DNA of 64,000 bases from Minisyncoccia bacterium (GCA_964229335.1 CAXRCZ010000007.1:62717-126716); one strand, 5' to 3'. Positions 894 through 63,359 are shown, counted from the first letter of the stretch. The notes: generated from the sequence alone by a model not told the origin. Numbers and translations are program-made.

Positions 894-1066
894 CGATTAA
901 ACTGCGATAGCATTTGCTATCGCAATTTATCGTTATGGATACCGAGCACTGGGACGAGAAAGGCGGAGAAAACCAGTCTGGGGGACTGGAGTTTCGAGCC
1001 AGGGTCGTGAGCGATATATTTTCATTCATGAAAATAATCGACTCCTGACCGAGTCCCTGTCCAGTA
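894..1066 (+). repeat. tRNA-3'-associated element (Gln copy)
   Basis: Hairpin, degenerate inverted copy of tRNA 3' end (936-960), core aggcggag...cgagccagggtcgtgag...tgacc, direct copy cgagtccctgtccagta (1050-1066). Confidence 0.8.
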
Positions 1067-1085
1067 ATTTGCTATACTTTCATGT

Positions 1086-1565
1086 ATGGCACATATAAAT
1101 TACTACCTAGACCTCTGCGTAGATACCTTCATAGTAAATGGAGATGCTGTACTACTGAGGTTGCATGAAAAGTACAACTATTGGGGTACGCCAGGAGGGC
1201 ATATTGATCCCGGCGAAGATGCAAACGAAGCTGCGGTACGAGAAGCTTGGGAAGAATCAGGTCTAAAAGTTACTTTGATTGGTCCTAAAAATTGGACTCA
1301 AACAGATACTGAAACAAATAAAGACCTTGTCCCACCATTGTTTATGAATCGTCATAAAATAAACGAGGTACACGACCACTCCTCTTTAGTATTTGCAGCA
1401 CGGTCTGATTCTAGAGAAATCAATCCACAAGAAGAAGACAGTATGGATACAGAATACAGATGGTGCACCAGAGTAGACCTAGATGATTTGTTAGAAAAAG
1501 ATGAGAGAATGCGACCAGAAACTCAACGATATGCACTTGCTGCTCTAGAAGCGGCTGGCCAATAA
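1086..1565 (+). CDS. NUDIX hydrolase
   Basis: Nudix box [23 protein letters not shown]. Confidence 0.93.
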   Translation: MAHINYYLDLCVDTFIVNGDAVLLRLHEKYNYWGTPGGHIDPGEDANEAAVREAWEESGLKVTLIGPKNWTQTDTETNKDLVPPLFMNRHKINEVHDHSSLVFAARSDSREINPQEEDSMDTEYRWCTRVDLDDLLEKDERMRPETQRYALAALEAAGQ

Positions 1566-1593
1566 AGTTCCAACATCGTCCCTGTCCGGTAGC
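1564..1593 (+). repeat. att-like repeat 1, ending in the tRNA-Gln 3' sequence gtccctgtccggtagc
   Basis: aaagttccaacatcgtccctgtccggtagc; last 16 nt match 876-891. Confidence 0.8.
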
Positions 1594-1632
1594 TCGTAAA
1601 AAAGCCACCTCCTGTTAAAGAGGTGACGCAAA

Positions 1633-1806
1633 TTAATCTTCATAAGTCAGTAGACCAATTTTCTTTCGCTCTTCAGCGAGTTCAGAAAATGTCATCCCTG
1701 ACAATTTATTGTAGAGAGATGAACGCTCATGAGCGTCCGAGTCCTTGAACCGAGGATGGTTGAGAATCTGTTAACACATTGCGTAAGAGCTTGATTGTTC
1801 GTGCAT
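1633..1806 (-). pseudogene. Small ORF (58 codons including terminal stop) with in-frame TAA at codon 12
   Basis: Strong SD (aggagga) before ATG; MHEQSSSYAMC*QILNHPRFKDSD...LLTYED*; terminator-like hairpin downstream. Confidence 0.45.
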
Positions 1807-1841
1807 GGTGTCCTCCTGTGAGTAAGTTATCATAACCCCAG

Positions 1842-1871
1842 AAAAGTTCCAACATTGTCCCAGACGGCTAG
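1842..1871 (+). repeat. att-like repeat 2
   Basis: aaaagttccaacattgtcccagacggctag, identical to 2459-2488. Confidence 0.9.
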
Positions 1872-1926
1872 CACCGATATTTCAGCTATATTTAGTTCGA
1901 CTTCTTGATCAAGGTATACTCTTCAT

Positions 1927-2454
1927 ATGAACAAAAAAGACAGAGAGGAACTCACAGAACTAATTGAAGAGGAAGAAGGAAGAAAGTGGTGGGTACCGGA
2001 TGAATTTGAAGCATATATTCGATCTCGTCTTCCTTTGGAGTTAACAATAGTAGCCCCACCACCAGCATACTTAATAAACTATAATTGTTTCGTATTCGCT
2101 TTTGGACTTGAGCAAGATCCAGAGTTCCTTGGAGGAAACAATCCTGTACAGCAAGAATTTATAAAACATCTATTTAGTAAGAATATTCTTGTAGCAACAA
2201 ATAATCCAGAACCTGGAGATCTGGTGTTCTATAAAGACGGAGGAGAAAATATTACTCATGGGGGAATAATGAAATCTGATGACATCGTTCTCTCTAAGTG
2301 GATGTGGGGAGCTGTTATTAAACATAAGCTGTGGGATGTACCGTCTTCTTTTGGTGACGAAGTGTTTTATTGTAAGTCAGTAGATTCGAGAGAAACCAAG
2401 GAAGAATACCGGGAGTATAAAGATAGTGGAGTAGAAATTAAGCCGATTTCTTAG
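1927..2454 (+). CDS. Hypothetical protein, possible papain-like/NlpC-P60-type fold
   Basis: 175 aa ORF; YNC motif, PGDLVFY and downstream His (ITHGG). Confidence 0.7.
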   Translation: MNKKDREELTELIEEEEGRKWWVPDEFEAYIRSRLPLELTIVAPPPAYLINYNCFVFAFGLEQDPEFLGGNNPVQQEFIKHLFSKNILVATNNPEPGDLVFYKDGGENITHGGIMKSDDIVLSKWMWGAVIKHKLWDVPSSFGDEVFYCKSVDSRETKEEYREYKDSGVEIKPIS

Positions 2455-2458
2455 CTAA

Positions 2459-2488
2459 AAAAGTTCCAACATTGTCCCAGACGGCTAG
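2459..2488 (+). repeat. att-like repeat 3
   Basis: 30/30 identical to 1842-1871; lies between two convergent stop codons. Confidence 0.9.
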
Positions 2489-3022
2489 TTATTGAATTAA
2501 ATGTTTATCTCTTACGTTGGCTGTAATTTCACTATCTATTTTTCTGTCGGATGTACTGTGTAATACAGAAATATCACCAGTAGTTTCAAAAACTACAGCC
2601 CTTACTTCTGAGAGTTGAAGCACGTTAGCTTTGCGTAGTTTATCTCTGACTTCATCTTTAGTAACTCGGGCTTTTTTTAAATTGTCTTCTAAAAAACCTT
2701 GATTATTCATTAGTAAAATCGGTTCATTATCAATCAAGGTAGCAAACCATTTATTCCTCACTTTTATAAATGACAGTACGTATTGAAACAAATATAAACC
2801 ACCCATAGCTACTGCAGCTTGGAATATCTTAGGTTCTTTTGCGATTACCACAGAAGCTAGTATAGAACCAAACGCTACTGTGATGGCAAAATCAAAGCTA
2901 GACATTTTAGAAAAACTTCGAAGACCAACGATTCTTGTATAAAGTACTACTATCGAAGTAAATACTATTACTGAGAACAGTATTTGTGGCACATCTGAAT
3001 ATGACTGATAGATCCAATCCAT
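2489..3022 (-). CDS. DUF421/YetF family membrane protein (start uncertain, ORF open to 3097)
   Basis: RSFSKMSSFDFAITVAFGS, NLKKARVT, AVVFETTGDISV. Confidence 0.88.
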   Translation of the reverse strand: MDWIYQSYSDVPQILFSVIVFTSIVVLYTRIVGLRSFSKMSSFDFAITVAFGSILASVVIAKEPKIFQAAVAMGGLYLFQYVLSFIKVRNKWFATLIDNEPILLMNNQGFLEDNLKKARVTKDEVRDKLRKANVLQLSEVRAVVFETTGDISVLHSTSDRKIDSEITANVRDKHLIQ

Positions 3023-3139
3023 TAAGAAACCATACCATTTTAAAAAACCAGACGCAGCTATCGTAAGCGAAAAAAAGAAAAATAAGATACTATACATACA
3101 TATTGTAGTAATCGTTACACGTATTAATTAGAAAATTTC

Positions 3140-3712
3140 ATGGATCCGGTAGTTACATTTGATCTAACACAAACAATTTTTGGTGAAAGTGAATGGGTAT
3201 TCTTGTTAGAAATTACTTTTAGAGTTCTGGTTATTTATATCTTTGCCTTAGTGTTTCTGAGAGCAGGAGGAAAAAAAGCGCGTAAACAAATGACTCCAGT
3301 TGAGATGTTACTAATTGTAGCGCTCGGTTCAGCGGTGGGAGATGTAATGTTTTATCCATCTGTAGCAATAATTTATGCAGCACTAATTATTATGACAGTG
3401 ATTACGTTGCAGTTTGGTACTTCGAGATTAAAACTCAAGTGGTCACCTTTCGAAAAATTTATTAATAGTAGGCCAAATTTGTTAGTAAAAAATGGGCAAA
3501 TAATTCAGCATGCGTTGGAAACTGAAAACTTTACTGAAGCTGAACTAGAATCCGAACTAAGAAAGAATGGAGTGAGAAATATTGGAGAGGTCGAATATGC
3601 CTATCTAGAATTAGATGGAAGTATAAGTGTATTTCCGTTTGAGGAAGGTAAGGTAAAGAATGGTAAAGAAATTATGCCGCTCCCAGAAGTTGACGAGTTT
3701 ATTCGTGTCTAA
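3140..3712 (+). CDS. DUF421/YetF family membrane protein
   Basis: KQMTPVEMLLIVALGS, LRKNGV, AYLELDGSISV. Confidence 0.9.
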   Translation: MDPVVTFDLTQTIFGESEWVFLLEITFRVLVIYIFALVFLRAGGKKARKQMTPVEMLLIVALGSAVGDVMFYPSVAIIYAALIIMTVITLQFGTSRLKLKWSPFEKFINSRPNLLVKNGQIIQHALETENFTEAELESELRKNGVRNIGEVEYAYLELDGSISVFPFEEGKVKNGKEIMPLPEVDEFIRV

Positions 3713-3738
3713 TATTTAAGTTTGATAATTTACGAGTA

Positions 3739-4869
3739 ATGTCTACAGCACTTCCGCGTTACGAATACAGTCGATTAATAATACAGCGACGACTACAAGA
3801 ACTAACTAGTCTAGAAGCTCCATTTGGCTTGACGACTCGCTACGCCGTTAAAGCCAATCCACATCCAGAAATAATAAAACTCATTGATACTGCAGGTGTT
3901 GAGTTTGATGCCAGTTCAAGTTATGAAGCAGATGAGTTATTAGAAATGGGTATCGAGGGTAATAAGATTTCGCTATCTTCACAGCAGTCAACTCCTAATC
4001 TTGCTGAATTACTTGAGCAAGGAGTGCTCTATGTGGCCACCTCGATGCGACAACTGAGAGATTTTATTGCCGCCGCCAATCATCCTGATACTGTTGGGAT
4101 ACGGATTAATATTGATATGGGGGTGGGGCATAACAAGCGCACCAGTACCGGGGGAGCAACCTCAGCGTTTGGACTTTGGTACGAATATATTCCCGAAGCT
4201 CTAGCACTAGCCAAAGAAAATGATGTGATCATTGATCGCCTACATATCCATGTTGGGTCAGGTTCAGATCCCAAAGTGTGGGGAGAGGTGATGGATCGGT
4301 CGCTTTCGATTGCCACGCAATTACCCGATGTCATCGCGCTCGATATCGGAGGTGGTTTCAAAGTGCATCGATATGATACTGAGAAAGAGGCTGATATGTC
4401 GGTAATAATGGAGCTCTTTTCTAGCAAGTTAGAGAACTTTGCAGCTGAAACTGGCAGAGAGTTACGGCTTGAAATTGAACCTGGTACGTACCTGATTGCG
4501 CATGCCGGCACCTTGGTAGCAACTGTCGACGATATTGTCGATACTGGAGCCGACGGCTTCACTTTTCTGCGAATCAATACTGGTATGAATGATTTTTTGC
4601 GTACAGCTATGTACGGCGCTCAACATAAAATCGAGGTGATAAATAATGATGATGAAACTAAAGAATACATTGTGGTAGGACACAACTGCGAGTCGGGTGA
4701 TATTTTCACCCCTACTCCCGGTGACCCAGAAGAAATCGAACCGAGAATGTTAAATAAAGCAGAGATTGGCGACGAGATACGTATTTATGATGTTGGTGCG
4801 TATGGCGCAAGTATGCGAGCCAAGGGCTACAACTCGTTTCCAGACGCTGTTGAGGTGATAGTCGATTAG
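3739..4869 (+). CDS. lysA: Diaminopimelate decarboxylase
   Basis: YAVKAN (PLP Lys), HIHVGS, DIGGG, EPG, GHNCESGD, GAYG. Confidence 0.85.
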   Translation: MSTALPRYEYSRLIIQRRLQELTSLEAPFGLTTRYAVKANPHPEIIKLIDTAGVEFDASSSYEADELLEMGIEGNKISLSSQQSTPNLAELLEQGVLYVATSMRQLRDFIAAANHPDTVGIRINIDMGVGHNKRTSTGGATSAFGLWYEYIPEALALAKENDVIIDRLHIHVGSGSDPKVWGEVMDRSLSIATQLPDVIALDIGGGFKVHRYDTEKEADMSVIMELFSSKLENFAAETGRELRLEIEPGTYLIAHAGTLVATVDDIVDTGADGFTFLRINTGMNDFLRTAMYGAQHKIEVINNDDETKEYIVVGHNCESGDIFTPTPGDPEEIEPRMLNKAEIGDEIRIYDVGAYGASMRAKGYNSFPDAVEVIVD

Positions 4870-4902
4870 ATATATTGTACTATAATAGGTATTATAGGTA
4901 GT

Positions 4903-5169
4903 ATGAAAAAAAGTCATTATATTGCTGGAATCTTGCTTGGCTTACTCACTCCAGTTGCCGGAATATTTATTGGATTACAAATCTCTACGACATTCGGAAC
5001 AATTTTAGCCTGGCCGCTGGTGCTGATGAGTTTCTTGACCGGGATTCCATTTGGTATGTGGTCACCACTGCTGTGGTTGGTGGCGATGATTCTCTCGGTT
5101 ATTGTGTGGACGCTAGTGGTGTATGCTCTTAGTCAACTTGGTAAAACACGTGCCAAAGACAAGTCTTAG
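4903..5169 (+). CDS. Small membrane protein
   Basis: 88 aa, about 3 hydrophobic segments. Confidence 0.75.
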   Translation: MKKSHYIAGILLGLLTPVAGIFIGLQISTTFGTILAWPLVLMSFLTGIPFGMWSPLLWLVAMILSVIVWTLVVYALSQLGKTRAKDKS

Positions 5170-5244
5170 TAATTGACCAAATAGACTTTTACGCGTACTC
5201 TTCAGACATCAACCACGCCTACCAGGCGTATTTATTTTTTACTT

Positions 5245-7035
5245 ATGCAACAATCAGAAATTCGCAATATCGCTATTATCGCTCACGTAGACCACGGTAA
5301 AACTACACTTACCGATGGTTTGATGGAGTTTACTGGTGCCAGAGAAGGGGATGCGTCGATGGACAACAACGCGTTAGAGCAAGAACGAGGTATTACCATC
5401 TATGCCAAAAACACTTCTGTTGACTATAAAGATACAAAAATCAACATTATTGATACACCCGGCCACGCGGACTTTGGGTCTGAGGTTGAGCGTATTTTGC
5501 GTAGTATTGACTGCGTTTTGCTGGTGGTAGACGCGCAGGAAGGGCCAATGCCGCAAACTAGATTTGTATTAAAAAAATCTCTTGAACTCGGACACAAACC
5601 GATTGTGATTATCAACAAGATTGATAAGCCAGCAGCCAATCCTGATCAGTGCGAAGAGCAGGTACTAGAACTCTTCTGGGAGCTTGGCGCCAGCGATGAA
5701 CAAAGCGAATTCCCAGTAGTGTACGCTGTCGGTAGAGACAAGGTGGCTAAGCGAAATCTGACTGACGAAATGACAGACCTCTCTCCAGTACTCGATACAA
5801 TTCTCGAACATGTTCCAGCCGCCAAAGGATATACCGAAAACGACCCACTCCGAGCTCAAGTATTCAACCTCGGGTACGATAACTTTTTAGGACGACTAGC
5901 GGTAGCGAGAATTTACGAGGGTAAGGTGAGTAAAGGTCAATCAGTGATTGTAAAGCATAAAGGCGAGGAGTCCTACAAAGGAAAAATCGTCAAACTATCT
6001 GGCTACAAAGGAGTGCAACAAGTAGAGGTTGAAGAAGCGTTTGCTGGCGATATCGTTTTGATAGCGGGGCTCGAAAAAATAAATATCGGTGACACTATTA
6101 CCGATACTGATGAAGCAGAACCACTACCAGCAATTGAGGTTGATGAACCAACCGTAAGTATGACCTTCTTAGTCAACTCTTCGCCTTTTGCTGGAAGAGA
6201 AGGTAAGTATGTTACTAGTCGACAGATTGGTGAGCGGTTAGAAAAGGAGTTAGAAATCAATGTTGGTTTGCAAGTAGAGCAGGCAACAGGTGACGCGTAT
6301 GTCGTAAAAGGTCGGGGTGAAATGCACATTGCAATTTTGCTTGAAAATATGCGGCGTGAGGGATATGAACTGTCAGTTTCTCAACCAAAAGTTATTTTCC
6401 GGGAAGAGAATGGTCAGACTCTTGAGCCATTTGAAGAAGCGATTATTGATATCCCGAGCGAATACCAAGGATCAGTGATTGAACGTCTTAGCAATCGTGG
6501 TTTTATTATGCAAAACATGGTTCCGCATGAGAACCAAGTTCGACTTATATTCGAAGGTCCTACCCGCGGTCTATTGGGATATAAAAACCAATTTATTATT
6601 GATACGAAAGGAGAGGGAATTCTATCTTCACGGTTCATTGAATTCCGTCCACATGCCGGAGAAATCAAAAAACGCCAAGTTGGCTCAATGACATCGATGA
6701 CTACAGGAAAAGCTCTCGGCTTTGCATTGGCTGGTTTGCAGGACCGTGGCGAGCTCTATATTGGCGCGGGTACCGAAGTGTATGAAGGGATGGTTATCGG
6801 CAACACCAACAAAGGTGAAGAAATGGCGGTAAACCCGACTAAAGGCAAACAGCTCACCAACATGCGTGCCTCAGGTAGTGACGACAACGTTTCACTTACT
6901 CCGCACCGACCACTGAAGATTGAGACAGGTTTGGAAATTATGCAGGAAGATGAGTATCTAGAAGTCTGTCCAGAAAGTATTCGCTTGCGTAAGCAACTAC
7001 TCAAAGAAAACGAACGATCACGCCTGCGCCGCTAG
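5245..7035 (+). CDS. typA: Translational GTPase TypA/BipA
   Basis: [37 protein letters not shown]. Confidence 0.97.
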
Positions 7036-20365: not shown

Positions 20366-20600
20366 GGAGCAGACTCGGTCACGAGTTACTAAGTATATTT
20401 GTTCGTGATGCTCAAAATATTGCTTAGGGACATTGACTCGTCCTGGCGGTCACAAGGCTGAATTGAGTATCAAGATACTCAATTCAGCAAGTGCCGCGGG
20501 ACACGCCTCGCTCGTTTTCAGCTCCAGGTAATGAGCTGAAAACATCGTTCCGGCGTTCGAGTCTGCACGCAAGCAAAGCAGTTTGCTTGCTCCCTGAGCA
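20366..20600 (-). repeat. tRNA-Phe-type element(s), tandem/nested, displaced about 1.1 kb from the tRNA
   Basis: Inverted copy of Phe 3' end (20555-20566 and 20592-20600) split by a hairpin; core cgccggaac...agcgaggcg...gtgacc; direct copies at 20421-20440 and 20369-20377. Confidence 0.75.
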
Positions 20601-20643
20601 GTCAAAACCCCGCCAAGGGCGGGGTTTCTTTGTGCAGATGCAC

Positions 20644-20663
20644 GGGACAATTCTCGAACTTTT
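20644..20663 (-). repeat. att-like repeat 4
   Basis: AAAAGTTCGAGAATTGTCCC, 17/20 identical to the first 20 nt of repeats 2 and 3. Confidence 0.6.
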
Positions 20664-20835
20664 GATCTGAGAGTCCTTCACTCTATCAAGCAACTCGAAC
20701 CACTCCAAAACGCAAACGACGACTCTGTTGAGCCGCCGATTGCTGATGTCGCGTAAGAGCGACTCTCTCAGCGCGACCGTACATAAAAACCCTCGATGCA
20801 CGAATGCATCGAGGGTCTGCGGTAGCTAGCAATAG

Positions 20836-21330
20836 CTACTTGGGATTACGAACGAACATCCAAGAAACGTTGCTGTCCCACCTGCGGTCGGGGTGACCGT
20901 TACGAGCGTAGATCCAGCGCCCGAAGTCGTCGCATACCACGCGGAACACGTTACGATCGCCTCCCGAGTCCACGATGGTTTCCATTGCCACAAGCGACCA
21001 TTCGCCACGGGGCAACAGATCGTGGTCATGTAGCCAAAGCTGCGGGGCCGCTTCGGCAGGGCAGAGCGAGAGGTTGTGACTTTCGGCAGCAGCGTAAATC
21101 TGCGCTGTGGTCGCACCGTCTTCCAGTCCCAGCTCTTTGACCAACACCCGAACCAGGTCGAGCGGAGTTTCCGTATCCTCGAAGGTAGCCCGTTCGAGAA
21201 TATCGTCACCCCAGTCGCCGATCCTGATGCCAGCATCTTCGAGGCGTTTGCGAGCTTCTTGAGCGCTTCCGAGATTCCCGACCGTGACTGTTTTCCAGGT
21301 CGGGAAGGTCGATTGTGTTGCAGTCTTCAT
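20836..21330 (-). CDS. Hypothetical protein (GC-richer accessory gene)
   Basis: 164 aa, SD ggag, LSLCPAEAAPQL motif, downstream terminator hairpin. Confidence 0.8.
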   Translation of the reverse strand: MKTATQSTFPTWKTVTVGNLGSAQEARKRLEDAGIRIGDWGDDILERATFEDTETPLDLVRVLVKELGLEDGATTAQIYAAAESHNLSLCPAEAAPQLWLHDHDLLPRGEWSLVAMETIVDSGGDRNVFRVVCDDFGRWIYARNGHPDRRWDSNVSWMFVRNPK

Positions 21331-21467
21331 TGAACATCTCCCGAGCCAGCTTCCGCCAGCTCATTTTGAGTGGCGGGTGGTTAACCCAGGAAAAACCTAC
21401 CTGAATTCAATCACATATCGTGAATCTGTCAACTTGTGCCGTGACTCAGGAGAGCTATCTTATTCTG

Positions 21468-21617
21468 ATGACTCACGACGAATGGCTGGAAGAATACATC
21501 GATATTTGCGCCACAATCTTCATACGACTGCAGCGAGAAGGACGACTGGAAGAGGTTCTGTCGACATATGAGAAGACTCGAACTGAGAAAGTCTTAGAAA
21601 CCAACGATATTTCATGA
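21468..21617 (+). CDS. Small hypothetical protein
   Basis: 49 aa from MTHDEWLEEY. Confidence 0.5.
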   Translation: MTHDEWLEEYIDICATIFIRLQREGRLEEVLSTYEKTRTEKVLETNDIS

Positions 21618-21714
21618 CTTGAGAATCTGACTAAGATTTCTCGAAAGCTTGGAATACAAAAATACCGCTCAGGTGAGCGGTATTTTTGTGAGGCAGAAAA
21701 GCCGTCTCTTTTTG

Positions 21715-21788
21715 TGCTCAGGGGCAGACTCGAACTGCCGACACCTGGTTCTTCAGACCAGTGCTCTAACCAACTGAGCTACCTGAGC
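21715..21788 (-). tRNA. tRNA-Phe(GAA)
   Basis: gctcagg/cctgagc acceptor, ctggt-ctGAAga-accag, GTTCGAGTC; CCA not encoded. Confidence 0.95.
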
Positions 21789-22213: not shown

Positions 22214-22288
22214 GTCCTTATAGTTTAATGGATAAAACGGCTCCCTCCTAAGGAGCAAATCTAGGTTCGATTCCTAGTGAGGACACCA
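22214..22288 (+). tRNA. tRNA-Arg(CCT)
   Basis: gctcc-ctCCTaa-ggagc, GGTTCGATTCC, CCA. Confidence 0.95.
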
Positions 22289-22470
22289 ATCAGCCGCCCT
22301 GAACACGAACGCGTTCAGGGCGTTGCTGTTGGTAGTACACTACTAGGAATCGAAAGACGGAGCTGGTACACAAGACGAGCGTAGCGAGGGCTTGTCAGCG
22401 AGTCCGGGGAGGAAGTTCTTAACGAACGAAGTGAGTTTAGAAACTTGACCCCGATTCCTAGTAAGGATAC
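22289..22470 (+). repeat. tRNA-3'-associated element (Arg copy)
   Basis: Hairpin; inverted copy actaggaatcgaa (22342-22354); agacggagc...agcgagtccgggg...ttgacc; direct copy cgattcctagtaaggatac (22452-22470). Confidence 0.85.
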
Positions 22471-35458: not shown

Positions 35459-35569
35459 TAATTTCTTACTCGTAAGGTGTCCACCATCATACCAGAGTAG
35501 GGCAATCTAATGAAGAAACCACCTAGTAGTCTAGATGGTTTCTGTTGGGAAGATAAATTGTAGTTTTTA

Positions 35570-35709
35570 GAACGCTGGTACCGGTCACAAGTTACTAAGT
35601 GTTTTCACTAACTTCGTTAGTTGCGAGCACTAAGTACTCGCGACCCCAGCTCGCTTCTCGTCGCTGCGGGATAGAGCCGCTCCTCACATCGCTGCGCTTG
35701 GCGGTACCC
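35570..35709 (-). repeat. Same element family at the 3' end of ftsZ
   Basis: 35630-35655 is 25/26 identical (revcomp) to 55790-55815; inverted copy of ftsZ 35740-35749 at 35700-35709; degenerate direct copy at 35570-35583. Confidence 0.85.
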
Positions 35710-36939
35710 TTATTTCAGCTTACTTCGTCGCAGAAATGCGGGTACCGCCCCCCAATCGTCCTCTTCATCAGAGTCTTCACTCGCGTCGACTGGTTTTGGT
35801 TCACGTTTGGGAATTTCTGGACGTGAAGACTGATTAGTGTTTGCTGCTGGAGCTGGTGTTTCCTCAGCTTTCTTTGGTAGAGAGTTAAATATCTTTCCTT
35901 TGGTTGGTGTAATCTCTATATCTTCATCATCCTCTTGAATCGGAGCTCGGCGAGAGATATGCATGCCACCGGTGTTGAGAGTTTCGTCAGGGAAACCAGT
36001 AGCGATAACGGTGACTTTGATTTCATTCTTCTTCAACTTCTCGTCACGAATTGCTCCGAAGATAACTTTTGCTTGAGAATCAATTGATTCAGTGATTACC
36101 CGTGCCGCGTCTTGGATTTCGAGCATACCAAGATCATCTCCACCAGCGATGGCGAATAGAACACCTTTCGCTCCAGTAATCGAAACTTCCAATAGGGGAG
36201 AGTTAATAGCGTCTCGAGAAGCTTCCTCAGCACGCTTGTCGCCAGAAGAAATACCTACACCCATCAAGGCTGAGCCGGCATTTTCCATTACGCTGCGGAT
36301 GTCAGCGAAGTCGACATTGATGATACCTGGCATGGTAATCAGGTCAGAGATACCTTCTACCGCTTGACGTAGAACGTTGTCACACTGCTCAAACGCGTTT
36401 TTAACAGTGGTCTCCTTGTCTACAATTGCTAGCAAGCGATCGTTAGGGATGGTGATGAGTGCATCAACCTCTTTCTTCAGTTCTTCGATTCCTTGCAAAG
36501 CAAGACGCATACGCTCTTGGCCTTCAAATAAGAATGGTTTAGTCACTACACCAACAGTGAGAGCACCACTTTCACGAGCGATTTTAGCTACGACGGGAGC
36601 AGATCCGGTACCGGTACCTCCACCCATTCCTCCAGTGATGAAGATCATATCTGATCCTTTGATGGCGTTGGCGATTTCTTCTCGAGTTTCTTCAGCAGCG
36701 CGGCGACCCATGTCAGGGTTACCACCAGCTCCTAGACCGCGGGTGAGGTTCTTACCGATGTGAATTTTTTTCTTAGCTAGCGAGTGATGTAAGTCTTGGG
36801 CGTCACTGTTTACTGCAATAAATTCCACTCCTTTAACTTTTGAGTTCACCATGTGGTTCACGGCGTTCTTTCCAGAGCCGCCGACACCAACGACTCTTAT
36901 ACGTGCAAATGACTCTACGTCTGATTTAATTTGTTCCAT
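35710..36939 (-). CDS. ftsZ: Cell division protein FtsZ
   Basis: [16 protein letters not shown]-terminal VPAFLRR. Confidence 0.98.
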
Positions 36940-55526: not shown

Positions 55527-55629
55527 GTAAATGTGGCGCTGAGTATAGCAAACAATTAGTACCAGTGCCAGTTGAAAATACGCTTGAACTATCGATATCA
55601 CTGAGGTACACTCAGGCGCACCAACTATT

Positions 55630-55702: not shown

Positions 55703-55878
55703 CAACGTTAAGAAAAACTGTGCCTGCGCACAGTTTTTTAGTTGTCCGAGGCGGAGCTATGTTTTTTCTCTTAACCTTGAGAAAAAGCCAGCGAGCCGGG
55801 GTCGCGAGTACTTAGCAAAATTTTTGCGAAGCGAATATTTTGGTTAGTAACTGGTGACGTCAACGTAAAGAAAAACTG
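55703..55878 (+). repeat. tRNA-3'-associated element (Lys copy)
   Basis: tgtgcctgcgcaca hairpin, short inverted ttgtccg, aggcggagc, agcgagccggggtcgcgagtacttag, gtgac, direct copy caacgtaaagaaaaactg of the 55703 flank. Confidence 0.8.
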
Positions 55879-55898
55879 CCCAACGGCAGTTTTTCTAT

Positions 55899-55986: not shown

Positions 55987-56009
55987 ATGCACTATCGAAC
56001 AATGTTTTG

Positions 56010-56194
56010 TTCGTGAGTCCTGGGCGGGAATCTTCCCACAGTTACTAATTCGTTACACTCATAAGTACTGCTAGACGCGGCTCAACCGTTTCAATTTCTA
56101 GGAATGGAAATTGAACCATGTCTCCGCCGTTCGATTCCAGAAAGATTGTGCGCAGGCACAATCTACCCATGCCTACGAAAACTTAGTTTTCGTG
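56010..56194 (-). repeat. tRNA-3'-associated element (Cys copy)
   Basis: 23-bp perfect direct repeat 56010-56032 = 56189-56211; inverted T-arm copy 56129-56138; core 56034-56083 is 45/50 identical to 63178-63227. Confidence 0.9.
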
Positions 56195-56266
56195 AGTCCT
56201 GGGCGGGAATCGAACCCGCGCATGGAGGTTTTGCAGACCTCAGCGTTACCACTTCGCCACCAGGAC
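56195..56266 (-). tRNA. tRNA-Cys(GCA)
   Basis: gtcctgg/ccaggac, gaggt-ctGCAaa-acctc, U discriminator. Confidence 0.95.
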
Positions 56267-56325
56267 AGTAATAATTCGCTCCGTACTTTAGCATTTATAT
56301 AATGCGGTGACAAAGCACAAACTAA

Positions 56326-56661
56326 CTAATCCTCACTCTCAAGTTGGCGAAAGACATCATCTATATGTTGACGGTGCCGTTCACCAGCATCAATCATGAA
56401 GTCGAAGTGAGGAATTCTTTTTATCTTAGTGTGGCTTTTTAGATATTGCCGCATATCTCCACCCGAACGCTTCAAAAAAATAAGCGCTTCATTCTCCTTA
56501 CCGTCAGGCAAGGTTGTGAAGAAAACTATTGCACGTTTCAAGTCAGGCGAAATATCAATCCGTGTAATAGTAATTAACGGATCAGCATTGGCTTCTTGCT
56601 GTACAAACTTGGCTACGTTCTCCTGTAGCAAATGTGCTACTTTAGCTTGTCTTTCAGACAT
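56326..56661 (-). CDS. rbfA: Ribosome-binding factor A
   Basis: ITITRIDISPDLKRA, KRIPHFDF; downstream of infB. Confidence 0.9.
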   Translation of the reverse strand: MSERQAKVAHLLQENVAKFVQQEANADPLITITRIDISPDLKRAIVFFTTLPDGKENEALIFLKRSGGDMRQYLKSHTKIKRIPHFDFMIDAGERHRQHIDDVFRQLESED

Positions 56662-56664
56662 AGG

Positions 56665-58173
56665 TTAGGTGATTACTGTATCGTATGGCTTGAGATAGTC
56701 TCCAGCTGCGATTTCGCTACGGGTTTCAAGTTGCATACCAAATTCACCCTCTTCGACTTGGTTCACATCAGACTTACCTTGCTGCAGGTTTTTGATTACT
56801 CCGGTACCGATTTCTATGTCACGACGAGTAATTTTGACTGGTTGATTCATTTTGATTACTCCTTCGTCCATTCGTCCACCAAGAACGTGAGTGTATTTTT
56901 GGGTACTAAAGTGTTTTAAGATTTTTACTGAACCTGTAGTTATCTTTTCTTCTTTTTTTGGAGTGCGGTTTTTAAGAGCCGTGTTAAGCCATTCTGATAG
57001 TTCGTAAATAATTGAGAAAGTATTAATCTCTACCCCTAATCGTTCTGCCAGGTCTTTGGCCGGCCGCTCTACTTTTACATTAAATCCGACGATAATCGCG
57101 TCAGGAGTTGCACTGACATTTTGGACGTCATTGGCAGTCACGTCACCGACACTACTATCAATAACCTTTACTATAATTCGATCTGATTCAAACTTATCTA
57201 ATTCGTGGCGAATGGCCTCAATGGTTCCGTACACATCTGCTTTGATTGCTATTGGCACCACCGGCAGGCTACTAGCCTCATATGCTTGTTGCGGGTTATC
57301 CTTAGCGGTTTGGTTCTCCTCGACCAGTGCTTCAGCTTCCTTTTTACTACTCACTGCTTGAAAGTTGGTACCGACTTCAGGAACTTCATTAAAACCAATG
57401 ACTTTCACTGGGATTGATAGACCAGCTTCTTTCACCGTTTTTCCTTGGAAGTCTTCCATGATGCGTATTGGTGAGTAAGCAGTGCCCGACACGACAAATT
57501 GACCGCTAGCAAGCGTACCGTTGGTTACTAGTAGCGTAGCGGTATTTCCCCGACGAGGATCAAGATTACTCTCAATTACCTTTCCGCTAGCGGCGGCGTT
57601 GGTGTCACCAGTAAGTTCGGCAAGGTCAGCTGTTAGACTAACGAGGTCTAGCAACTCCTCAATTCCTTCTCCGGTCTTGGCAGAAATTCCTGCCCAAGGA
57701 ATATCACCTCCCATTCCCTCAATATAAATTTCGTTTTCAATCAGGCTGGTCTGAGTTTGAGAAATATTAGCCCCAGGCTTATCGATTTTATTGATGGCTA
57801 CAATATAAGGAATATCTGCTTGTTTGATTGATTCGAGCGCCTCTAATGTCTGTGGCTTCACTCCATCTTCAGCCGATATGATTAAGATAGCAATATCTGC
57901 CACATCGGCTCCTCGCAAGCGCATCTTTTGAAACGCTTCATGGCCTGGAGTATCGAGGAAGGTCAGAGTCTCATCGCTCCCTTCTTTGGTCGTATGCTCC
58001 ACTACATACGCTGAAAGGTGCTGGGTAATACCGCCCGATTCGGTATCTACCACGTTACTCTTGCGAATGTAGTCGAGGAGAGTCGATTTTCCGTGGTCGA
58101 TATGACCCATTACTACCACGATGGGGTGGCGCTTGATTACATTGGGAGCTGCTGTTTTTGTTTTTTTTGCCAT
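56665..58173 (-). CDS. infB: Translation initiation factor IF-2 (short form)
   Basis: MGHIDHGKST, GGITQH, DTPGHEAF, NKID. Confidence 0.96.
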   Translation of the reverse strand: MAKKTKTAAPNVIKRHPIVVVMGHIDHGKSTLLDYIRKSNVVDTESGGITQHLSAYVVEHTTKEGSDETLTFLDTPGHEAFQKMRLRGADVADIAILIISAEDGVKPQTLEALESIKQADIPYIVAINKIDKPGANISQTQTSLIENEIYIEGMGGDIPWAGISAKTGEGIEELLDLVSLTADLAELTGDTNAAASGKVIESNLDPRRGNTATLLVTNGTLASGQFVVSGTAYSPIRIMEDFQGKTVKEAGLSIPVKVIGFNEVPEVGTNFQAVSSKKEAEALVEENQTAKDNPQQAYEASSLPVVPIAIKADVYGTIEAIRHELDKFESDRIIVKVIDSSVGDVTANDVQNVSATPDAIIVGFNVKVERPAKDLAERLGVEINTFSIIYELSEWLNTALKNRTPKKEEKITTGSVKILKHFSTQKYTHVLGGRMDEGVIKMNQPVKITRRDIEIGTGVIKNLQQGKSDVNQVEEGEFGMQLETRSEIAAGDYLKPYDTVIT

Positions 58174-58271
58174 AATTTCTCGAACTAAAAAAGCCTGTAA
58201 CTAAGGCAGACTCTAGCGTGTAAGTGGCGGCAGTATAGCAGATATTTACTAGTTATTCTAGGTGTGTCATT

Positions 58272-59486
58272 ATGCGAACATATATGTTTTGGAAAACTGC
58301 ACCAAAAAGGATATATCTGGATTACGCGGCAGCTACACCACTCTTGCCTGAAGTTGTGGCGGCTATGCAGCCGTATCTAGATAATTTGTATGCAAATCCC
58401 AGTTCGATTCATAGCGAAGGACAATTAGCCAGTGCTGCTGTTGAAGAAGCACGAAAGAATATTGCTAGGACGTTTGAGGTGCGACCAGAGTTTATCACGT
58501 TTACCTCTGGCGGGACTGAGGCAAACAACCTTGCAATTAGAGGGTCTGTGATGGCGGCGCGCAAAGAGGGGCAAGATTTGTCTGAACTAGAAGTGATAAC
58601 TACTAGAATTGAACATCCAGCCACTCTGAAAACAGTTGAAGCGCTAGCTCAGCGTGGAGTAACCGTACAGTATGTCAGTGTCGACGAGCGCGGTTTAATA
58701 GATATAGAAGAGCTGGAAAAGAAAATTTCAGCCAACACGGTTCTTATGACCACAACGTATGCCAATAGTGAAATTGGCAGTATCCAAAAGTTACACACCA
58801 TTAAAAAGACACTACGAAAAAAAGAACAGCAGTTTGGAAATAAAATACTTTTTCATGTTGATGCTGCCCAGGCTCCTCTATGGCTCAATTGTCAATTCGA
58901 CGCTATGAAAGCTGATTTAGTTACATTTGATGCAGGGAAGTGTAATGGACCAAAAGGAGTAGGGTTACTACTCCGGTCACCTCGTGTTGCGCTAAAACCA
59001 GTTATCTATGGCGGCGGACAAGAAGATGGATTGCGGCCCGGAACCGAGAATGTGGCCGGTATTGTCGGTGCAGCAGTGGCGTTTCTCGAGGCTCAATCCA
59101 ACTGGCGTAAAAATCAGGAGGCTATCAGTAAAACTAGAGATGAAGCGATTGCTTACATCCAAAAAGAAATTCCTAATGCAATAGTAAACGGTGCTGTCGG
59201 AGAGTTGCGCCAAGCCAATAATATAAACATCTCTATCCCTGGACATGATACAGAGTTTGCCACCATAGTGCTCGATAAGCACGGCTTTGCCGTATCAACC
59301 AAGTCAGCCTGTGCTGGCGCGGGCGGGGGAGAAAGTGTAGTAGTGCGCGAGATTTCTGATGAACCAGCTCGCGCCAGCTCGACCTTACGTATTTCACTTG
59401 CTCCAGACACCAAACTATCAGACCTTAAACGCCTTACAGCTGTTCTTACATCTCATATTGAGAAAATGTCCAATTACACACCATAA
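58272..59486 (+). CDS. iscS: Cysteine desulfurase (IscS/NifS family)
   Basis: YLDYAAATP, ANPSS, TSGGTE, GPKG, GTEN, SAC. Confidence 0.88.
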   Translation: MRTYMFWKTAPKRIYLDYAAATPLLPEVVAAMQPYLDNLYANPSSIHSEGQLASAAVEEARKNIARTFEVRPEFITFTSGGTEANNLAIRGSVMAARKEGQDLSELEVITTRIEHPATLKTVEALAQRGVTVQYVSVDERGLIDIEELEKKISANTVLMTTTYANSEIGSIQKLHTIKKTLRKKEQQFGNKILFHVDAAQAPLWLNCQFDAMKADLVTFDAGKCNGPKGVGLLLRSPRVALKPVIYGGGQEDGLRPGTENVAGIVGAAVAFLEAQSNWRKNQEAISKTRDEAIAYIQKEIPNAIVNGAVGELRQANNINISIPGHDTEFATIVLDKHGFAVSTKSACAGAGGGESVVVREISDEPARASSTLRISLAPDTKLSDLKRLTAVLTSHIEKMSNYTP

Positions 59487-59556
59487 GTTTTGACTTATTT
59501 TGCCAATTGGCGCAATATGCTGAGCGAACAGTTATTTATAGGACGGAGGTCAAACT

Positions 59557-59832
59557 ATGTGTATCTTTTTGCCTCTGGCCATGTGCTTTTTAGCTCCCCA
59601 ACCAGCTGAAGCAATTCCTGAGGAAGTCCGCTCGATTCGGCTGCCAGAATGGTGTTTGGAAGTGACCGAAGAAGAGTTTGAGTCGATACCGTTAGGTAAA
59701 TTCACTAGAACCAGTTGGTGGTGGATGTACGTGTTTCGATATAATAATAAAATCTATTCAATCACTTACTACAACAATCCAGTTTTTACCGCTGAGGTAA
59801 CTTCTGGACGCTGTTATCAATTGGTTGGTTGA
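59557..59832 (+). CDS. Small secreted hypothetical protein
   Basis: SD ggagg, signal-like N-terminus, terminator after. Confidence 0.6.
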   Translation: MCIFLPLAMCFLAPQPAEAIPEEVRSIRLPEWCLEVTEEEFESIPLGKFTRTSWWWMYVFRYNNKIYSITYYNNPVFTAEVTSGRCYQLVG

Positions 59833-59986
59833 AGAAGCAACAATTACGAAAGCCCGCGCAGAATTCGCGGGCTTTTCTTTTGACTTGCGTAGTCATCTAT
59901 TGCAATATAGAGAGACGACTGCGTGGAGGAAAGACTGTTTTGACTGATAAGCTGAAAGAACTTATACAACGAACATATTTTTTGTT

Positions 59987-62701
59987 ATGCCGAATTTTCA
60001 CAACTTTACCTCAAAGGCCAAAGAGGCTATTCGAAAGGCTCACGAGCTAGCTATTGAACGTGGCCAAAATCACGTCAGCACTCTCCATTTACTGACAGCT
60101 TTGTCGATGCAAGATGATAGCGCGGTGATTGTGATGCTTGATCGCTTGGATATCGATATTATTGCCTTTACCGATTTGCTCCTTGAGGCCTTGGAGACAC
60201 CCGAAACCCAAAATACTATTTCTCAATCATACCAACTATATCTCACACCAGAGCTGGCCAAGGCGCTAGAGTTTTCTACTGTGTACGCAGAGCAACTAGG
60301 AGATACATACGTAGGAGTAGAGCATTTATTTGTCGCAATTCTTGAGAATCCTGGTCCTGCTGCTGAGATTATTCAGCGAAGCAATATTCAGAAAAAACAA
60401 GTACAAGACACTATTAAAGAGCTACGCGAAAACAATATTAGTGACGCAGAGATGCCAAAGAAGTTTCGTACGCTTACTAAATACACTCGCAATCTTACTA
60501 AGCTTGCTCAAGAGAACAAAGTTGATCCAGTTATTGGTCGCGACATAGAAATCCAACGAGTAATTCAAATCTTGTCTCGACGTACCAAAAACAATCCAGT
60601 ATTGATTGGTGAAGCAGGGGTGGGAAAGACGGCTATCGCTGAAGGATTAGCCCAACAAATCGCCCTTGGCCAAGTACCAGAGTCAGTTAAAGAAAAAGAA
60701 ATTCTCTCACTTGATTTAGGACTCTTAGTAGCAGGGACTAAATTCCGCGGTGAGTTCGAAGAGCGACTGAAAGCAGTTATGAAAGAAGTAGAAAGTGCTG
60801 CAGGCAAAATCATCTTATTTATTGACGAGCTACATACCATCGTGGGTGCTGGTCAAGCGGATGGCTCGATGGATGCCAGTAATATGTTGAAGCCAGCTCT
60901 GGCTCGTGGCGAAATCAGAGTGATTGGCGCCACCACACTAAAAGAGTATCAAAAACATATTGAGCGAGACCCAGCGCTAACCCGACGCTTTCAGCCAGTC
61001 TATGTCAATGAGCCAAACCAAGAAGACGCCGTTGCGATTTTGCGTGGTCTGGCTGAGAAATATGAGCTGTATCACGGCGTCCGTATTACCGACGACGCTA
61101 TTCTCGCAGCAGTTAACCTCTCTTCTCGCTATATCACCGATAGATTTCTGCCTGACAAAGCAGTCGATTTGATTGACGAAGCTGCTTCAGCACTTCGTAT
61201 ATCGTTAGAAAACAAGCCAGAAGAGCTGGTAGTAGCCGACAGGGAGGTGCGGCGGCTAGAGATAGAGCGCGAAGCTCTCAACAAAGAGCTAGAACTCGCT
61301 GAGAATACGCAGAAAATTAAAAAAAGACTCAAGGAGATTGATGCAGAGATTGGAGAATTACGAGAAAAAACTGCGACCCTTGAAACTAAGTGGAACAACG
61401 AGCGTGAAGCACTGAATGAAATTGGTGACTTTAAAAAAGAGTTGGAAGAACTTCGCTTAGAAGCTGATGCGGCGGAAGCCCGTGCAGACCTAACTCAAGC
61501 AGCCGAAATTCGCTACGACACAATTCCAGGAGTGGAAAAAGAACTGGAAGCAAAAATGAAGCGATTGAAGAAACTCCAACACAGTCGGCGACTATTAAAG
61601 GAGGAGGTTACCGAAGAAGAAATTGCCGGCGTGGTGTCTCGCTGGACTGGTATTCCAGTCTCACGCATGCTTGAAGCCGAAGTGCAAAAATTAGCGCGAA
61701 TGGAAGAAGAGTTAAAAGAGAAAGTGGTTGGTCAAGATGATGCCGTACAGCGCATCAGCGACGCCATTAAACGTTCACGCGCCGGTATTGCTGATCCCAA
61801 TCGGCCAATTGGTTCATTCCTATTTCTCGGACCGACAGGGGTGGGGAAGACAGAATTATCTCGAGCTTTGGCAGAGTTTATGTTCAATGACCCTGAGTCA
61901 CTGATTCGGGTAGACATGTCTGAGTTTATGGAGAAGCATTCAGTCTCTAAATTAGTCGGTTCTCCGCCCGGATATGTTGGCCACGATGAAGGTGGTAGTT
62001 TTACGGAAAAAATTCGTCACCGACCATACTCTGTTGTATTGCTTGATGAGGTAGAAAAAGCTCATCCAGAAGTCTTCAACATTCTCTTGCAAGTGCTCGA
62101 TTCTGGACATCTGACAGACGCGAAAGGTAGAAAAGTGAACTTCAAAAATACAGTCATTATCATGACTTCAAATATCGGCGCCGAGCACATCGACCGCATG
62201 TCTAACTTTGGCTTTACAGCTGATAAAGGCGAGTCAGCCCAATACTCACAGGCCAAAGACAAGGTAATGGATAGTCTGAAAACATTCTTCCGACCCGAGT
62301 TCCTCAACCGACTCGATGAGATAGTAGTATTTGATTTGCTATCTACTGAAGCTATACGTGACATCGTCGACCTACAAGTCGCAGAAGTCGTTAAGCGTCT
62401 CGAGAAGAAAGAAATCAAACTCTCAATCAGTAATGATGTGCTCGAGTATTTGGCTAAAGAAGGGTACGATCCAAAGTTCGGGGCTCGACCACTACGAAGA
62501 GTAATTCAGAGTAAAATCCTTACGCCTGTTGCGAATATGATGGTGGGCGAAGGAGTGCTGCAAGGTGGTACTGTCAAAGTTGCTATTAAGGGAGACGAGC
62601 TAGACTTTGATATCAAAAAGGCCGCCAAAGCCAAGACATCCACCAAGAAAAAAACCAAAGCGAAGAAAATAACTAAGAAGAAAGAAAAAGTAGCTGCGTA
62701 G
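59987..62701 (+). CDS. clpB: ClpB-type AAA+ chaperone
   Basis: Two Walker A motifs ([16 protein letters not shown]), long middle coiled coil, GARPLRR. Confidence 0.9.
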
Positions 62702-62764
62702 ACAGAAAAGCAGAAAGGCCGGCCCAGTCATGGGCCGGCCTTTTGTGTGTGATTCGCAAGAATC

Positions 62765-63052
62765 TTACTCCGTGACGCAGGTCTCGGCGCCGTCGCGGAG
62801 TTTCTGTTGGCAAGCCCTCGCTTCGGCTTTGAGTTCGGGGTTGGGGGCACTCATTACGAGTGGACCGATATCCTTCCATTGAGCTGCTTCGATTTGTTGA
62901 CGATAGGCTTCAGCCACCTCATCAGTGACTTCACGCTCTACAGGTGAAGCTTCCAGTTCCGGCTCAGTTTCCGAAGTAGATTCGCTACATTGCTTAGGTA
63001 ACGAGATGTTGGACAGTGCCACAGCGGCAGCCATCAAAAGATACATTTTCAT
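62765..63052 (-). CDS. Small secreted hypothetical protein
   Basis: SD ggag, signal-like N-terminus, Cys residues. Confidence 0.65.
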   Translation of the reverse strand: MKMYLLMAAAVALSNISLPKQCSESTSETEPELEASPVEREVTDEVAEAYRQQIEAAQWKDIGPLVMSAPNPELKAEARACQQKLRDGAETCVTE

Positions 63053-63159
63053 AGGAACTTCTCCAAATTGACCTCACCAGAATGGTGGTTTGTGTTCCGT
63101 ATACTAAATTAGCAGGTTGGGGTAGGGAGTCAAGATGGTTTTGTATATCTGTGTAAATA

Positions 63160-63359
63160 TGCGTCAGGAGGGATTGATCCCACAGTTTCTAATTCGTTAC
63201 ACTCACAAGAACTGCTGGACGCAGCTCGCCAATTTTCTCACTAGGACAGGCGAGAAAATTATGGCTCCGCTGGTTCAAATCCCATGAAATGTGCGCAGAC
63301 ACATTTCTTCTCACTACATAAACAAAAATAGCACCAAAAGGTGCTTGTTTTTGTGCTTG
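63160..63359 (-). repeat. tRNA-3'-associated element (Tyr copy)
   Basis: Direct copy tgcgtcaggagggatt (63160-63175) 200 bp from the tRNA end; inverted ggttcaaatccc (63272-63283); core shared with Cys copy. Confidence 0.9.

What the first reader, a model, noticed from the sequence alone, without database searches (positions are those of the whole stretch)
894..63359. Family of target-templated structured elements: target, inverted copy, conserved core, direct copy, at six tRNAs and ftsZ
Seen: elements of ~140-240 bp lie 3' of tRNA-Gln (894-1066), -Phe (20366-20600), -Arg (22289-22470), -Lys (55703-55878), -Cys (56010-56194), -Tyr (63160-63359) and ftsZ (35570-35709). They share a core: a CGGAG(C)-like start, a variable hairpin, a GCGAG-like block, a second hairpin and (G)TGACC or GTGGGA. 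Cys and Tyr cores are 45/50 identical; Lys and ftsZ blocks are 25/26. The arms around the core are not shared between loci. Each carries an inverted and a direct copy of its own neighbouring target (e.g. Arg actaggaatcgaa / cgattcctagtaaggatac; Tyr gggatttgaacc / aatccctcctgacgca). An ordinary target-site duplication or integrase attR explains the direct copy but not the inverted one. Inference: a non-coding mobile or guide-like element whose arms are matched to each target. The inverted arm could pair either with the tRNA 3' end or with the downstream copy, acting as a switch, guide or decoy att site. No cognate enzyme gene was recognised in the window, and I do not know a named family with this layout.
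Basis: partly seen in the sequence, partly recalled or inferred. Interest (0 to 1): 0.9.

Follow-up and report, generated by a model that had tools for sequence, protein, structure and literature searches.

The report
Mobile gene-end cassettes of CPR bacteria
Behind many tRNA genes and behind ftsZ in this tiny bacterium sits a 140-250-base protein-free element that shares a folded core and carries an inverted and a direct copy of the end of the gene in front of it; at ftsZ the two gene-end copies are different alleles, so the element likely travels between species and swaps in its own gene end, probably as folded single-stranded DNA and with an enzyme not yet identified.

Summary
All seven copies are real; Phe lies 1.1 kb behind its tRNA and Lys is a short-armed variant. 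Layout: gene end (T1), hairpin, inverted arm, covarying core, second gene end (T2). The arm reaches exactly 2 nt further upstream than T2 in 36 of 36 and 22 of 22 readable copies. A covariance model hits 51 of 141 genomes of the class; the core has no Rfam family. The scan has noted this family before in other genomes. Tested here: at ftsZ, T2 is not a target-site duplication. Eleven full-length T2 copies differ from T1 by 67 synonymous and 0 nonsynonymous codons, T1 relationships disagree with the host gene, and new elements push older ones downstream. The element therefore imports a gene end, island-like, while the first arm bases track the local target. No cognate enzyme was found in cis; serine recombinases, reverse transcriptases and Y1 transposases do not co-occur with it. 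Best reading: horizontally circulating, enzyme-less cassettes acting as folded ssDNA, CTXphi/attC-like. The enzyme step is inferred.

The parts
871..893 (+). tRNA-Gln T-loop to 3' end (T1)
894..932 (+). Gln spacer hairpin (H)
933..960 (+). Gln inverted arm, imperfect (tandem G.A variant)
961..1049 (+). Gln core, type I
   Evidence: CM E 1.6e-8
1050..1066 (+). Gln second gene end (T2)
20368..20377 (-). Phe T2 (10 nt)
20378..20555 (-). Phe core, divergent, with two 3' hairpin modules
   Evidence: not hit by the CM
20556..20601 (-). Phe inverted arm split by an internal hairpin (M module)
20602..20634 (-). Phe spacer/terminator-like hairpin
20635..21713 (-). about 1.1 kb cargo between tRNA-Phe and its element (164-aa ORF without Pfam match)
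21714..21734 (-). tRNA-Phe T-loop to 3' end (T1)
22266..22288 (+). tRNA-Arg(CCT) T1
22289..22331 (+). Arg spacer hairpin; both outer ends resemble those at tRNA-Val(TAC) of the same genome
22332..22354 (+). Arg inverted arm (13 core-proximal nt perfect, distal part mismatched)
22355..22451 (+). Arg core
   Evidence: CM E 1.4e-3; 92.7% over 55 nt to the Ser(GGA) copy
22452..22469 (+). Arg T2
35569..35583 (-). ftsZ T2: three synonymous codon differences in five codons, then broken
35584..35699 (-). ftsZ core
   Evidence: CM E 1.1e-6
35700..35709 (-). ftsZ inverted arm (10 nt, follows T1)
35710..35749 (-). ftsZ 3' end (T1, last 13 codons); lineage shared with hosts of about 78% upstream identity
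55699..55748 (+). tRNA-Lys acceptor end, hairpin and 8-nt inverted arm (short-armed variant)
55749..55858 (+). Lys core
   Evidence: CM E 3.2e-7
55859..55878 (+). Lys T2, overlapping the hairpin shared with the convergent tRNA-Leu
56010..56033 (-). Cys T2
56034..56129 (-). Cys core
   Evidence: 45/50 to Tyr; CM E 0.1
56130..56214 (-). tRNA-Cys T1, spacer hairpin and inverted arm with M hairpin
63160..63177 (-). Tyr T2 (worn)
63178..63272 (-). Tyr core
   Evidence: CM E 2e-5
63273..63380 (-). tRNA-Tyr T1, spacer hairpin, M hairpin and inverted arm

Best explanation
These are protein-free elements made of a gene end, a hairpin, an inverted arm and a conserved folded core, and at ftsZ the gene end in front of the core is a different allele from the one behind it, so they are likely mobile gene-end cassettes that move between species and replace the resident gene end, probably as folded single-stranded DNA acted on by a host enzyme. 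Shown: the layout, the 2-nt register between arm and second copy, presence and absence at one site, stacked arrays, allele differences, and a fold confined to the gene-sense strand. Inferred mechanism: the sense strand folds into a dumbbell (gene end paired with the inverted arm, capped by the hairpin at one end and the core at the other). It enters a new cell, likely by natural competence. The arm's 2-nt overhang and first bases register on a homologous gene end. One strand exchange near that point, finished by replication or by short homology within the duplicated end, puts the donor gene end in place and pushes the old end behind the core. The arm's first bases are then made to match the new host by heteroduplex repair or hairpin template switching. 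At tRNAs only matched ends would be viable, which would explain why both copies are usually identical there. The enzyme is unidentified; the near-universal Xer-type tyrosine recombinase is my candidate by elimination only.
For: Register: offset 2 in 36 of 36 readable copies among 73 and 22 of 22 readable among 29 independently found copies. Alleles: among 26 parsed ftsZ elements, 11 have a full-length T2; codons 4-13 show 67 synonymous, 0 nonsynonymous and 43 identical codons, where random base changes would be 25% synonymous. Likewise topA (L082, L102, L348) and rplE of this genome, whose T2 encodes a different C-terminus with its own stop. Incongruence: T1 97% identical between hosts 79% identical upstream (L174/L180), but 73-77% identical between hosts 97-98% identical upstream (L304/L312, L195/L199); correlation 0.10 over 1596 pairs. 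In L174/L180 the arm is only about 10 nt, so the shared middle of T1 cannot have been copied from the arm. Arrays: L312 carries a new element in front of the one that L304 carries alone; older whole elements lie downstream in L177, L180, L297. The arm follows T1, not T2: 12 vs 1 (2 neither) at +1 and 9 vs 2 (4 neither) at +4; its first base matches the host in 24 of 26. Fold: 328 two-sided changes vs 99 in shuffles; G.U/T pairs 170 on the sense strand vs 28 on the other; GNA triloops 50 vs 2 (12 shuffled); GNRA tetraloops 23 (22.6 shuffled). Genome has ComEC, no MutS match. A tyrosine recombinase is present in 38 of 41 relatives and in 5 of 5 element-rich genomes that lack serine recombinase, RT and Y1 matches.
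Against: No enzyme, circle or single-stranded form was observed. The Xer candidates look like ordinary chromosomal Xer proteins in two paralogous classes, and no core lies near 29 Xer loci or nine further recombinase regions. Targets share no Xer-like binding sequence that I could see. One precise crossover does not explain everything: in L312 the first 14 or more nt of T2 are shared with the donor lineage (L283, L291), so the right junction lies inside T2; in L282, L189 and topA L354 T1 and T2 are identical for the first 23-48 nt; and the first two codons of T1 are not lineage-linked (38% and 31% vs 27% and 25%, 13 non-independent pairs). At tRNAs T1 equals T2 over 17 nt in 30 of 47 copies and the differences look like decay of T2, which a templated duplication explains equally well. 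That GNA triloops mark DNA rather than RNA folds is recalled knowledge, not tested. The ftsZ loci were partly picked by similarity to the element, and the T2 pattern fixed codons 1-3 (hence counting from codon 4); in codons 4-5 of all 26 there are 26 synonymous and 8 nonsynonymous differences.
Confidence: 0.55

Rival explanations
1. Guide-directed homing: the arm and core direct a nick or break at the target, and the gap is repaired by copying an incoming donor strand (synthesis-dependent strand annealing), with T1 and T2 as the two homology arms. The unit still moves between species with its gene end, but by cut-and-copy rather than strand exchange.
For: Right junction inside T2 (L312); left junction within about 25 nt of the register point in two near-identical host pairs; the first base changed with the incoming element in L177, L180, L297; no MutS match; a 2-nt stagger fits GIY-YIG cutting (recalled); small GIY-YIG genes are common in relatives.
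Against: No nuclease linked: 1 of 31 GIY-YIG loci has a core nearby, and only 2 of 5 element-rich genomes show a small GIY-YIG. An upstream co-conversion signal seen in 19 loci (11 of 13 pairs at codon -1) vanished in 57 loci (9 of 15 vs 49%). The occupied allele keeps an intact target.
Confidence: 0.22
2. Target-templated insertion within the genome: a core is inserted and both arms are synthesised from the local target, T2 being a duplication.
For: T1 equals T2 in 30 of 47 tRNA copies; near-identical cores and spacer ends on different tRNAs of one genome; first arm bases track the host within a lineage (4 of 4 pairs at the first base, 7 of 8 at +1). Some such step must create new target specificities.
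Against: Cannot give 67 synonymous against 0 nonsynonymous differences, or T1 alleles shared between distant hosts.
Confidence: 0.1
3. RNA-level element: a 3' trailer or retro-element transcribed with the host gene, acting as a switch or copied back by target-primed reverse transcription.
For: Always on the sense strand behind strongly used genes; fixed 3' junction and variable 5' side; G.U-type asymmetry fits RNA as well as DNA.
Against: No RT match in this genome; RT in 15 of 50 element-positive vs 39 of 90 other genomes; no enrichment of GNRA or UNCG loops; a terminator-like hairpin usually precedes the arm at tRNAs. No RNA run could be tested.
Confidence: 0.08
4. Relics of integrase islands: att scars whose islands were lost, with chance hairpins.
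For: T-loop crossovers with a restored gene and a displaced fragment are the island signature (PMC4383910); the Phe copy encloses cargo.
Against: A covarying core, a fixed inverted arm, dozens of targets including protein genes, and no integrase next to any examined copy.
Confidence: 0.05

Closest known systems
tRNA/tmRNA-targeting genomic islands of tyrosine integrases (Islander; PMC4383910, abstract and passages read)
   Same: Crossover in the T-stem region, gene restored by the element's own copy, displaced fragment at the far end, tandem arrays.
   Different: 140-250 bp instead of 2 kb or more, no integrase, an inverted arm and a shared folded core, one core family on many tRNAs and on protein genes.
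CTXphi attP(+) and other elements exploiting Xer (PMC4246890, passages read)
   Same: Two inverted site copies that would pair in ssDNA to form a target-like stem; the prophage layout of site, inverted site, site; a host enzyme; short homology next to the exchange point.
   Different: Targets are gene ends, not dif; no Xer binding boxes seen; no phage genes; no copy found in viral, phage or plasmid searches.
Integron attC sites and cassette arrays (PMC4792948, passages read)
   Same: Structure conserved more than sequence, one strand favoured, bulged bases or branches in the stem, newest unit inserted first.
   Different: No integron integrase or attI; the folding strand is the gene-sense strand; the site stem is built from the host gene end; usually no cargo gene.
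REP/RAYT, IS200/IS605 and Ssn/NTS hairpin repeats (PMC11893778, abstract and passages read; IS608 guide pairing recalled)
   Same: Short non-autonomous hairpin repeats, likely ssDNA chemistry, base-pairing guide concept.
   Different: Those repeats flank their enzyme gene; here none does. This genome's Y1 and one GIY-YIG gene have their own different flanking repeats. They do not replace gene ends.

Membership tests
Integrase-borne tDNA island | Restored gene plus displaced fragment | tested here: met
Integrase-borne tDNA island | Integrase gene within the island, length 2 kb or more | tested here: not met
   elements 140-250 bp; none among 129 neighbours scanned; one Xer-type gene per genome here
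IMEX (CTXphi-type) | Inverted site copies able to fold into a target-like stem | tested here: met
   (predicted pairing only)
IMEX (CTXphi-type) | Integration at dif with XerC/XerD boxes | tested here: not met
   targets are tRNA, tmRNA, ftsZ, topA, rplE ends
IMEX (CTXphi-type) | Catalysis by host Xer | not testable with these tools
   presence only
Integron attC cassette | Integron integrase and attI platform | tested here: inconclusive
   the eight tyrosine recombinases aligned look Xer-like; no integron-specific profile was run
Integron attC cassette | Site conserved in structure, one strand folds | tested here: met
REP/RAYT or IS200/IS605 | Repeats flank a Y1 HUH gene and co-occur with it | tested here: not met
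   0 of 29 Y1 loci near a core; Y1 in 30 of 50 element-positive vs 51 of 90 other genomes, p 0.72
Ssn/NTS (GIY-YIG) | Repeats flank the nuclease gene | tested here: not met
   1 of 31 loci, and there behind an intervening tRNA
Serine-recombinase element | Crossover dinucleotide kept on both sides; enzyme co-occurs | tested here: not met
   T2 lacks the two bases; enzyme in 22 of 50 vs 53 of 90 genomes, p 0.11
Classical MITE | Terminal inverted repeats and an identical target-site duplication | tested here: not met
   arms are target-specific; T2 is another allele at ftsZ
IS110 bridge/seek RNA | IS110 recombinase present | tested here: not met
   no match in this genome; relatives not tested
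Retro-element or DGR | Reverse transcriptase present or co-occurring | tested here: not met
Any Rfam family | Score at the gathering threshold | tested here: not met
   window: only tRNAs; 16 further loci of this genome: only tRNAs reach threshold

The most novel reading that the evidence does not exclude
A self-reprogramming single-stranded DNA guide: one folded core recruits a still unrecognised enzyme, the inverted arm specifies the target with a fixed 2-nt register, and the arm is rewritten from each new target, so one scaffold has been retargeted to most tRNAs, tmRNA, ftsZ, topA and rplE and shuttles ends of essential genes between CPR species.
Probability: 0.25. Interest if true: 0.93.

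Novelty: categorically new. Interest (0 to 1): 0.8.

Why it matters
It would be a class of mobile DNA without a gene of its own that is common in a large bacterial class (51 of 141 genomes sampled), exchanges the 3' ends of essential genes between species, and leaves dated arrays at fixed sites, which gives a direct handle on gene flow in uncultured CPR bacteria. Its parts have precedents (island-type gene restoration, folded ssDNA sites), so it may turn out to be a variant of those once the enzyme is known; what has no precedent I could find is one core serving dozens of unrelated targets through a matched arm. If the arm programs the site, the enzyme would be a DNA-guided integration tool.

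Tried and rejected
Enzyme in cis: 206 ORFs near 125 core hits in 104 loci gave 161 cluster representatives of 700 aa or less; 129 were scanned with Pfam, the rest were judged by eye or left; none was a recombinase, HUH, GIY-YIG or RT, one was an rve-domain transposase. Neighbours of the 29 class-level loci were read by eye only. No core near 29 Y1 or 29 Xer loci. Co-occurrence with serine recombinase, RT and Y1 was null; 10 of 50 element-positive genomes match none of the three (kin not independent, the CM filter loses weak copies). This genome has no Pfam match for RT, IS110, MutS or HNH. A required C at the junction: an artefact of my search pattern; Lys has G there. Upstream co-conversion: seen, lost. 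Viruses and plasmids: two exact patterns gave 0; a looser one gave 120 loci from 7 of 64 parts of the collection, none with CM E below 0.01; blastn against phages and plasmids gave nothing. No skip of the Lys or Cys element attributable to this strain was seen in four DNA runs; contigs drop rare variants. The exact type I pattern is rare outside the class (6 of 301 phylum genomes). In one search, 49 of 122 pattern matches were dropped (GC 60% or more, no core start, or too little flank).


Full report
Setting. The window is one end of contig C7 of a 741-kb genome. Records with the same element are mostly titled Paceibacteria, Kaiserbacteria, Nomurabacteria and similar CPR names, so the host is most likely a Paceibacteria (Parcubacteria) member; this is inferred. 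C7 is a perfect 126,716-bp palindrome centred at window 642/643. A 19.6-kb contig of run X1 passes through the local hairpin there into other sequence, so the mirror is an assembly artefact and tRNA-Gln is counted once.

Observation. All seven copies are present. On the gene-sense strand each reads: gene end (T1), spacer hairpin, inverted arm, core, second gene end (T2). The core starts with an RGRCGGAG-like block, has two variable hairpins around a GAGYCGGGGTCG-like block and usually ends in TGAC. Phe is 1.1 kb from its tRNA, Lys sits at the acceptor end with an 8-nt arm, Gln has an imperfect arm. By eye about 21 of the genome's 38 t(m)RNA genes carry an element, 16 of this type and 5 of a second core type, plus ftsZ and rplE. 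Arms match their own tRNA best in 17 of 23 flagged genes and 0 of 15 others.

Family. A pattern scan gave 121 loci from 7 of 64 parts of the genome collection; 73 of 122 matches were kept as true copies. The inverted arm extends exactly 2 nt further upstream on the target than T2 in 36 of 36 copies with both arms readable and in 22 of 22 readable among 29 copies found later by the covariance model. A script found a further hairpin inside the arm, 11-17 nt from the core, in 29 of 53 T-loop-type copies; about four of these are the spacer hairpin itself. On 53 cores, 90% of cells pair and 328 show two-sided changes against 99 in shuffles, with slid controls at 34-48% paired; the search pattern fixed several columns, and relatedness inflates such counts. 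In 89 cores the fold is strand-specific: wobble pairs 170 vs 28, GNA triloops 50 vs 2 (12 shuffled), tandem-GA apical motifs 48 vs 3, while GNRA (23 vs 22.6 shuffled) and UNCG loops are not enriched. That GNA triloops are a DNA-hairpin trait is recalled. The model hits 51 of 141 genomes of the class. Rfam has nothing for the core.

What the direct copy is. tRNA targets are uninformative: T1 equals T2 over 17 nt in 30 of 47 copies and the rest looks like decay. Protein targets are informative. I collected 57 distinct ftsZ ends from the family: 26 had a parsed element with T2, 7 a core-like match without parsed T2, 24 were scored empty, some of which carry second-type or unparsed elements; part of the set was picked by similarity to the element. 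In the 11 with a full-length T2, codons 4-13 differ from T1 by 67 synonymous and 0 nonsynonymous changes (43 identical); random changes would be 25% synonymous. These 11 were chosen for peptide identity, but copies with 4-9 synonymous and no other changes cannot arise by neutral decay. Over all 26, codons 4-5 give 26 synonymous and 8 nonsynonymous differences. topA and rplE show the same. T1 is 97% identical between hosts 79% identical upstream, and 73-77% identical between hosts 97-98% identical upstream. L312 has a new element, of the lineage found in L283 and L291, in front of the one L304 carries. The element therefore brings a gene end from another species and displaces the resident one.

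What the arm does. Where T1 and T2 differ, the arm follows T1 (12 vs 1 at +1; 9 vs 2 at +4), and its first base matches the host in 24 of 26, the two misses being parsing errors. Within one lineage the first two codons of T1 vary almost as much as between lineages, yet the arm keeps matching (4 of 4, 7 of 8 and 5 of 9 pairs at the three variable positions; 13 non-independent pairs). So the junction-proximal bases are kept matched locally, by rewriting or strong selection. Template switching between imperfect inverted repeats is a known way to do this (PMC8604942, search listing only). Shared cores and spacer ends on different tRNAs of this genome show that retargeting or module exchange happens.

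Results against a single clean crossover. T2 of L312 begins with 14 or more nt shared with the donor lineage; L282, L189 and topA L354 have T1 equal to T2 for 23-48 nt; the first base changed with the newcomer in L177, L180 and L297. Junctions therefore vary within the duplicated end, which is why homing by break repair remains a strong rival.

Enzyme. None in cis. Serine recombinase, RT and Y1 do not co-occur with the element, and 10 of 50 positive genomes match none. A tyrosine recombinase is present in 38 of 41 relatives and in five such genomes; those aligned look like ordinary Xer. ComEC is present, MutS not matched. Xer is a candidate by elimination only.

Known systems. It works like an island in restoring the gene (PMC4383910, abstract and passages), like CTXphi attP(+) in layout (PMC4246890, passages) and like attC in structure-over-sequence conservation (PMC4792948, passages), but fails the defining tests of each, and of REP/RAYT and Ssn/NTS (PMC11893778, abstract and passages; no mention of tRNA or CPR in its text). 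Six searches aimed at the element found no description; the library lacks most subscription papers, and no supplements were read.

Earlier scan notes describe the same family in other genomes, some already naming a spare gene end or attC/CTXphi as closest; a word search found none on the ftsZ allele test. They are not independent support.

Verdict. Real, widespread, undescribed in what I could search. Mobility with an imported gene end is well supported (about 0.9); the folded-ssDNA, host-recombinase mechanism is inferred (about 0.55). Interest 0.8.

Noticed in passing
window 1-1284 (centre 642/643); contig C7: The whole 126.7-kb contig is a perfect palindrome; a read-derived contig continues into other sequence at the central hairpin, so it is an assembly artefact.
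   Followed up: yes
G000 loci L019-L023; ftsZ loci L281, L297, L302, L310: A second, unrelated-looking core (long hairpin, GTACTG-like block, short TGTAAG hairpin) uses the same tRNA and ftsZ sites with the same arm geometry.
   Followed up: partly
L180, L201, L206, L312; G000 C4 about 97360, C6 about 43550: The second core also occurs without visible arms, preceded by a small hairpin, nested inside first-type hairpins or alone.
   Followed up: no
window 1568-1597, 1846-1875, 2463-2490: Three att-like repeats resembling the tRNA-Gln 3' end delimit a NUDIX gene, a short stretch and a DUF7689 gene behind the Gln element.
   Followed up: no
window 20635-21713: Cargo between tRNA-Phe and its element, with two worn T-loop-like sites and a 164-aa ORF without Pfam match.
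   Followed up: partly
L005 (G000 C12:471-2063): A large serine recombinase gene runs into tRNA-His from the opposite strand.
   Followed up: no
L007 (G000 C10) and L002 (G000 C4): The Y1 HUH gene and one small GIY-YIG gene each have their own short flanking inverted repeats, unrelated to the core.
   Followed up: partly
L012 (G000 C6:42922-43260): A tRNA with a group I-like intron (48 bits, threshold 50) carries a first-type element followed by an inverted second-type one.
   Followed up: no
L173, L175, L190 (ftsZ ends): Synonymous codons of the element-borne ftsZ end themselves form an internal hairpin, in the place of the M hairpin of tRNA copies (by eye).
   Followed up: no
L053, L103-L105, L070, L107: Pattern matches in records titled Elusimicrobia, Bdellovibrionales or Planctomycetaceae, some with the full core; host range or mis-binning not checked.
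   Followed up: no
L326, L328, L338, L377: Small GIY-YIG genes inserted in 23S or 16S rRNA genes or at tRNA 5' ends in relatives.
   Followed up: no
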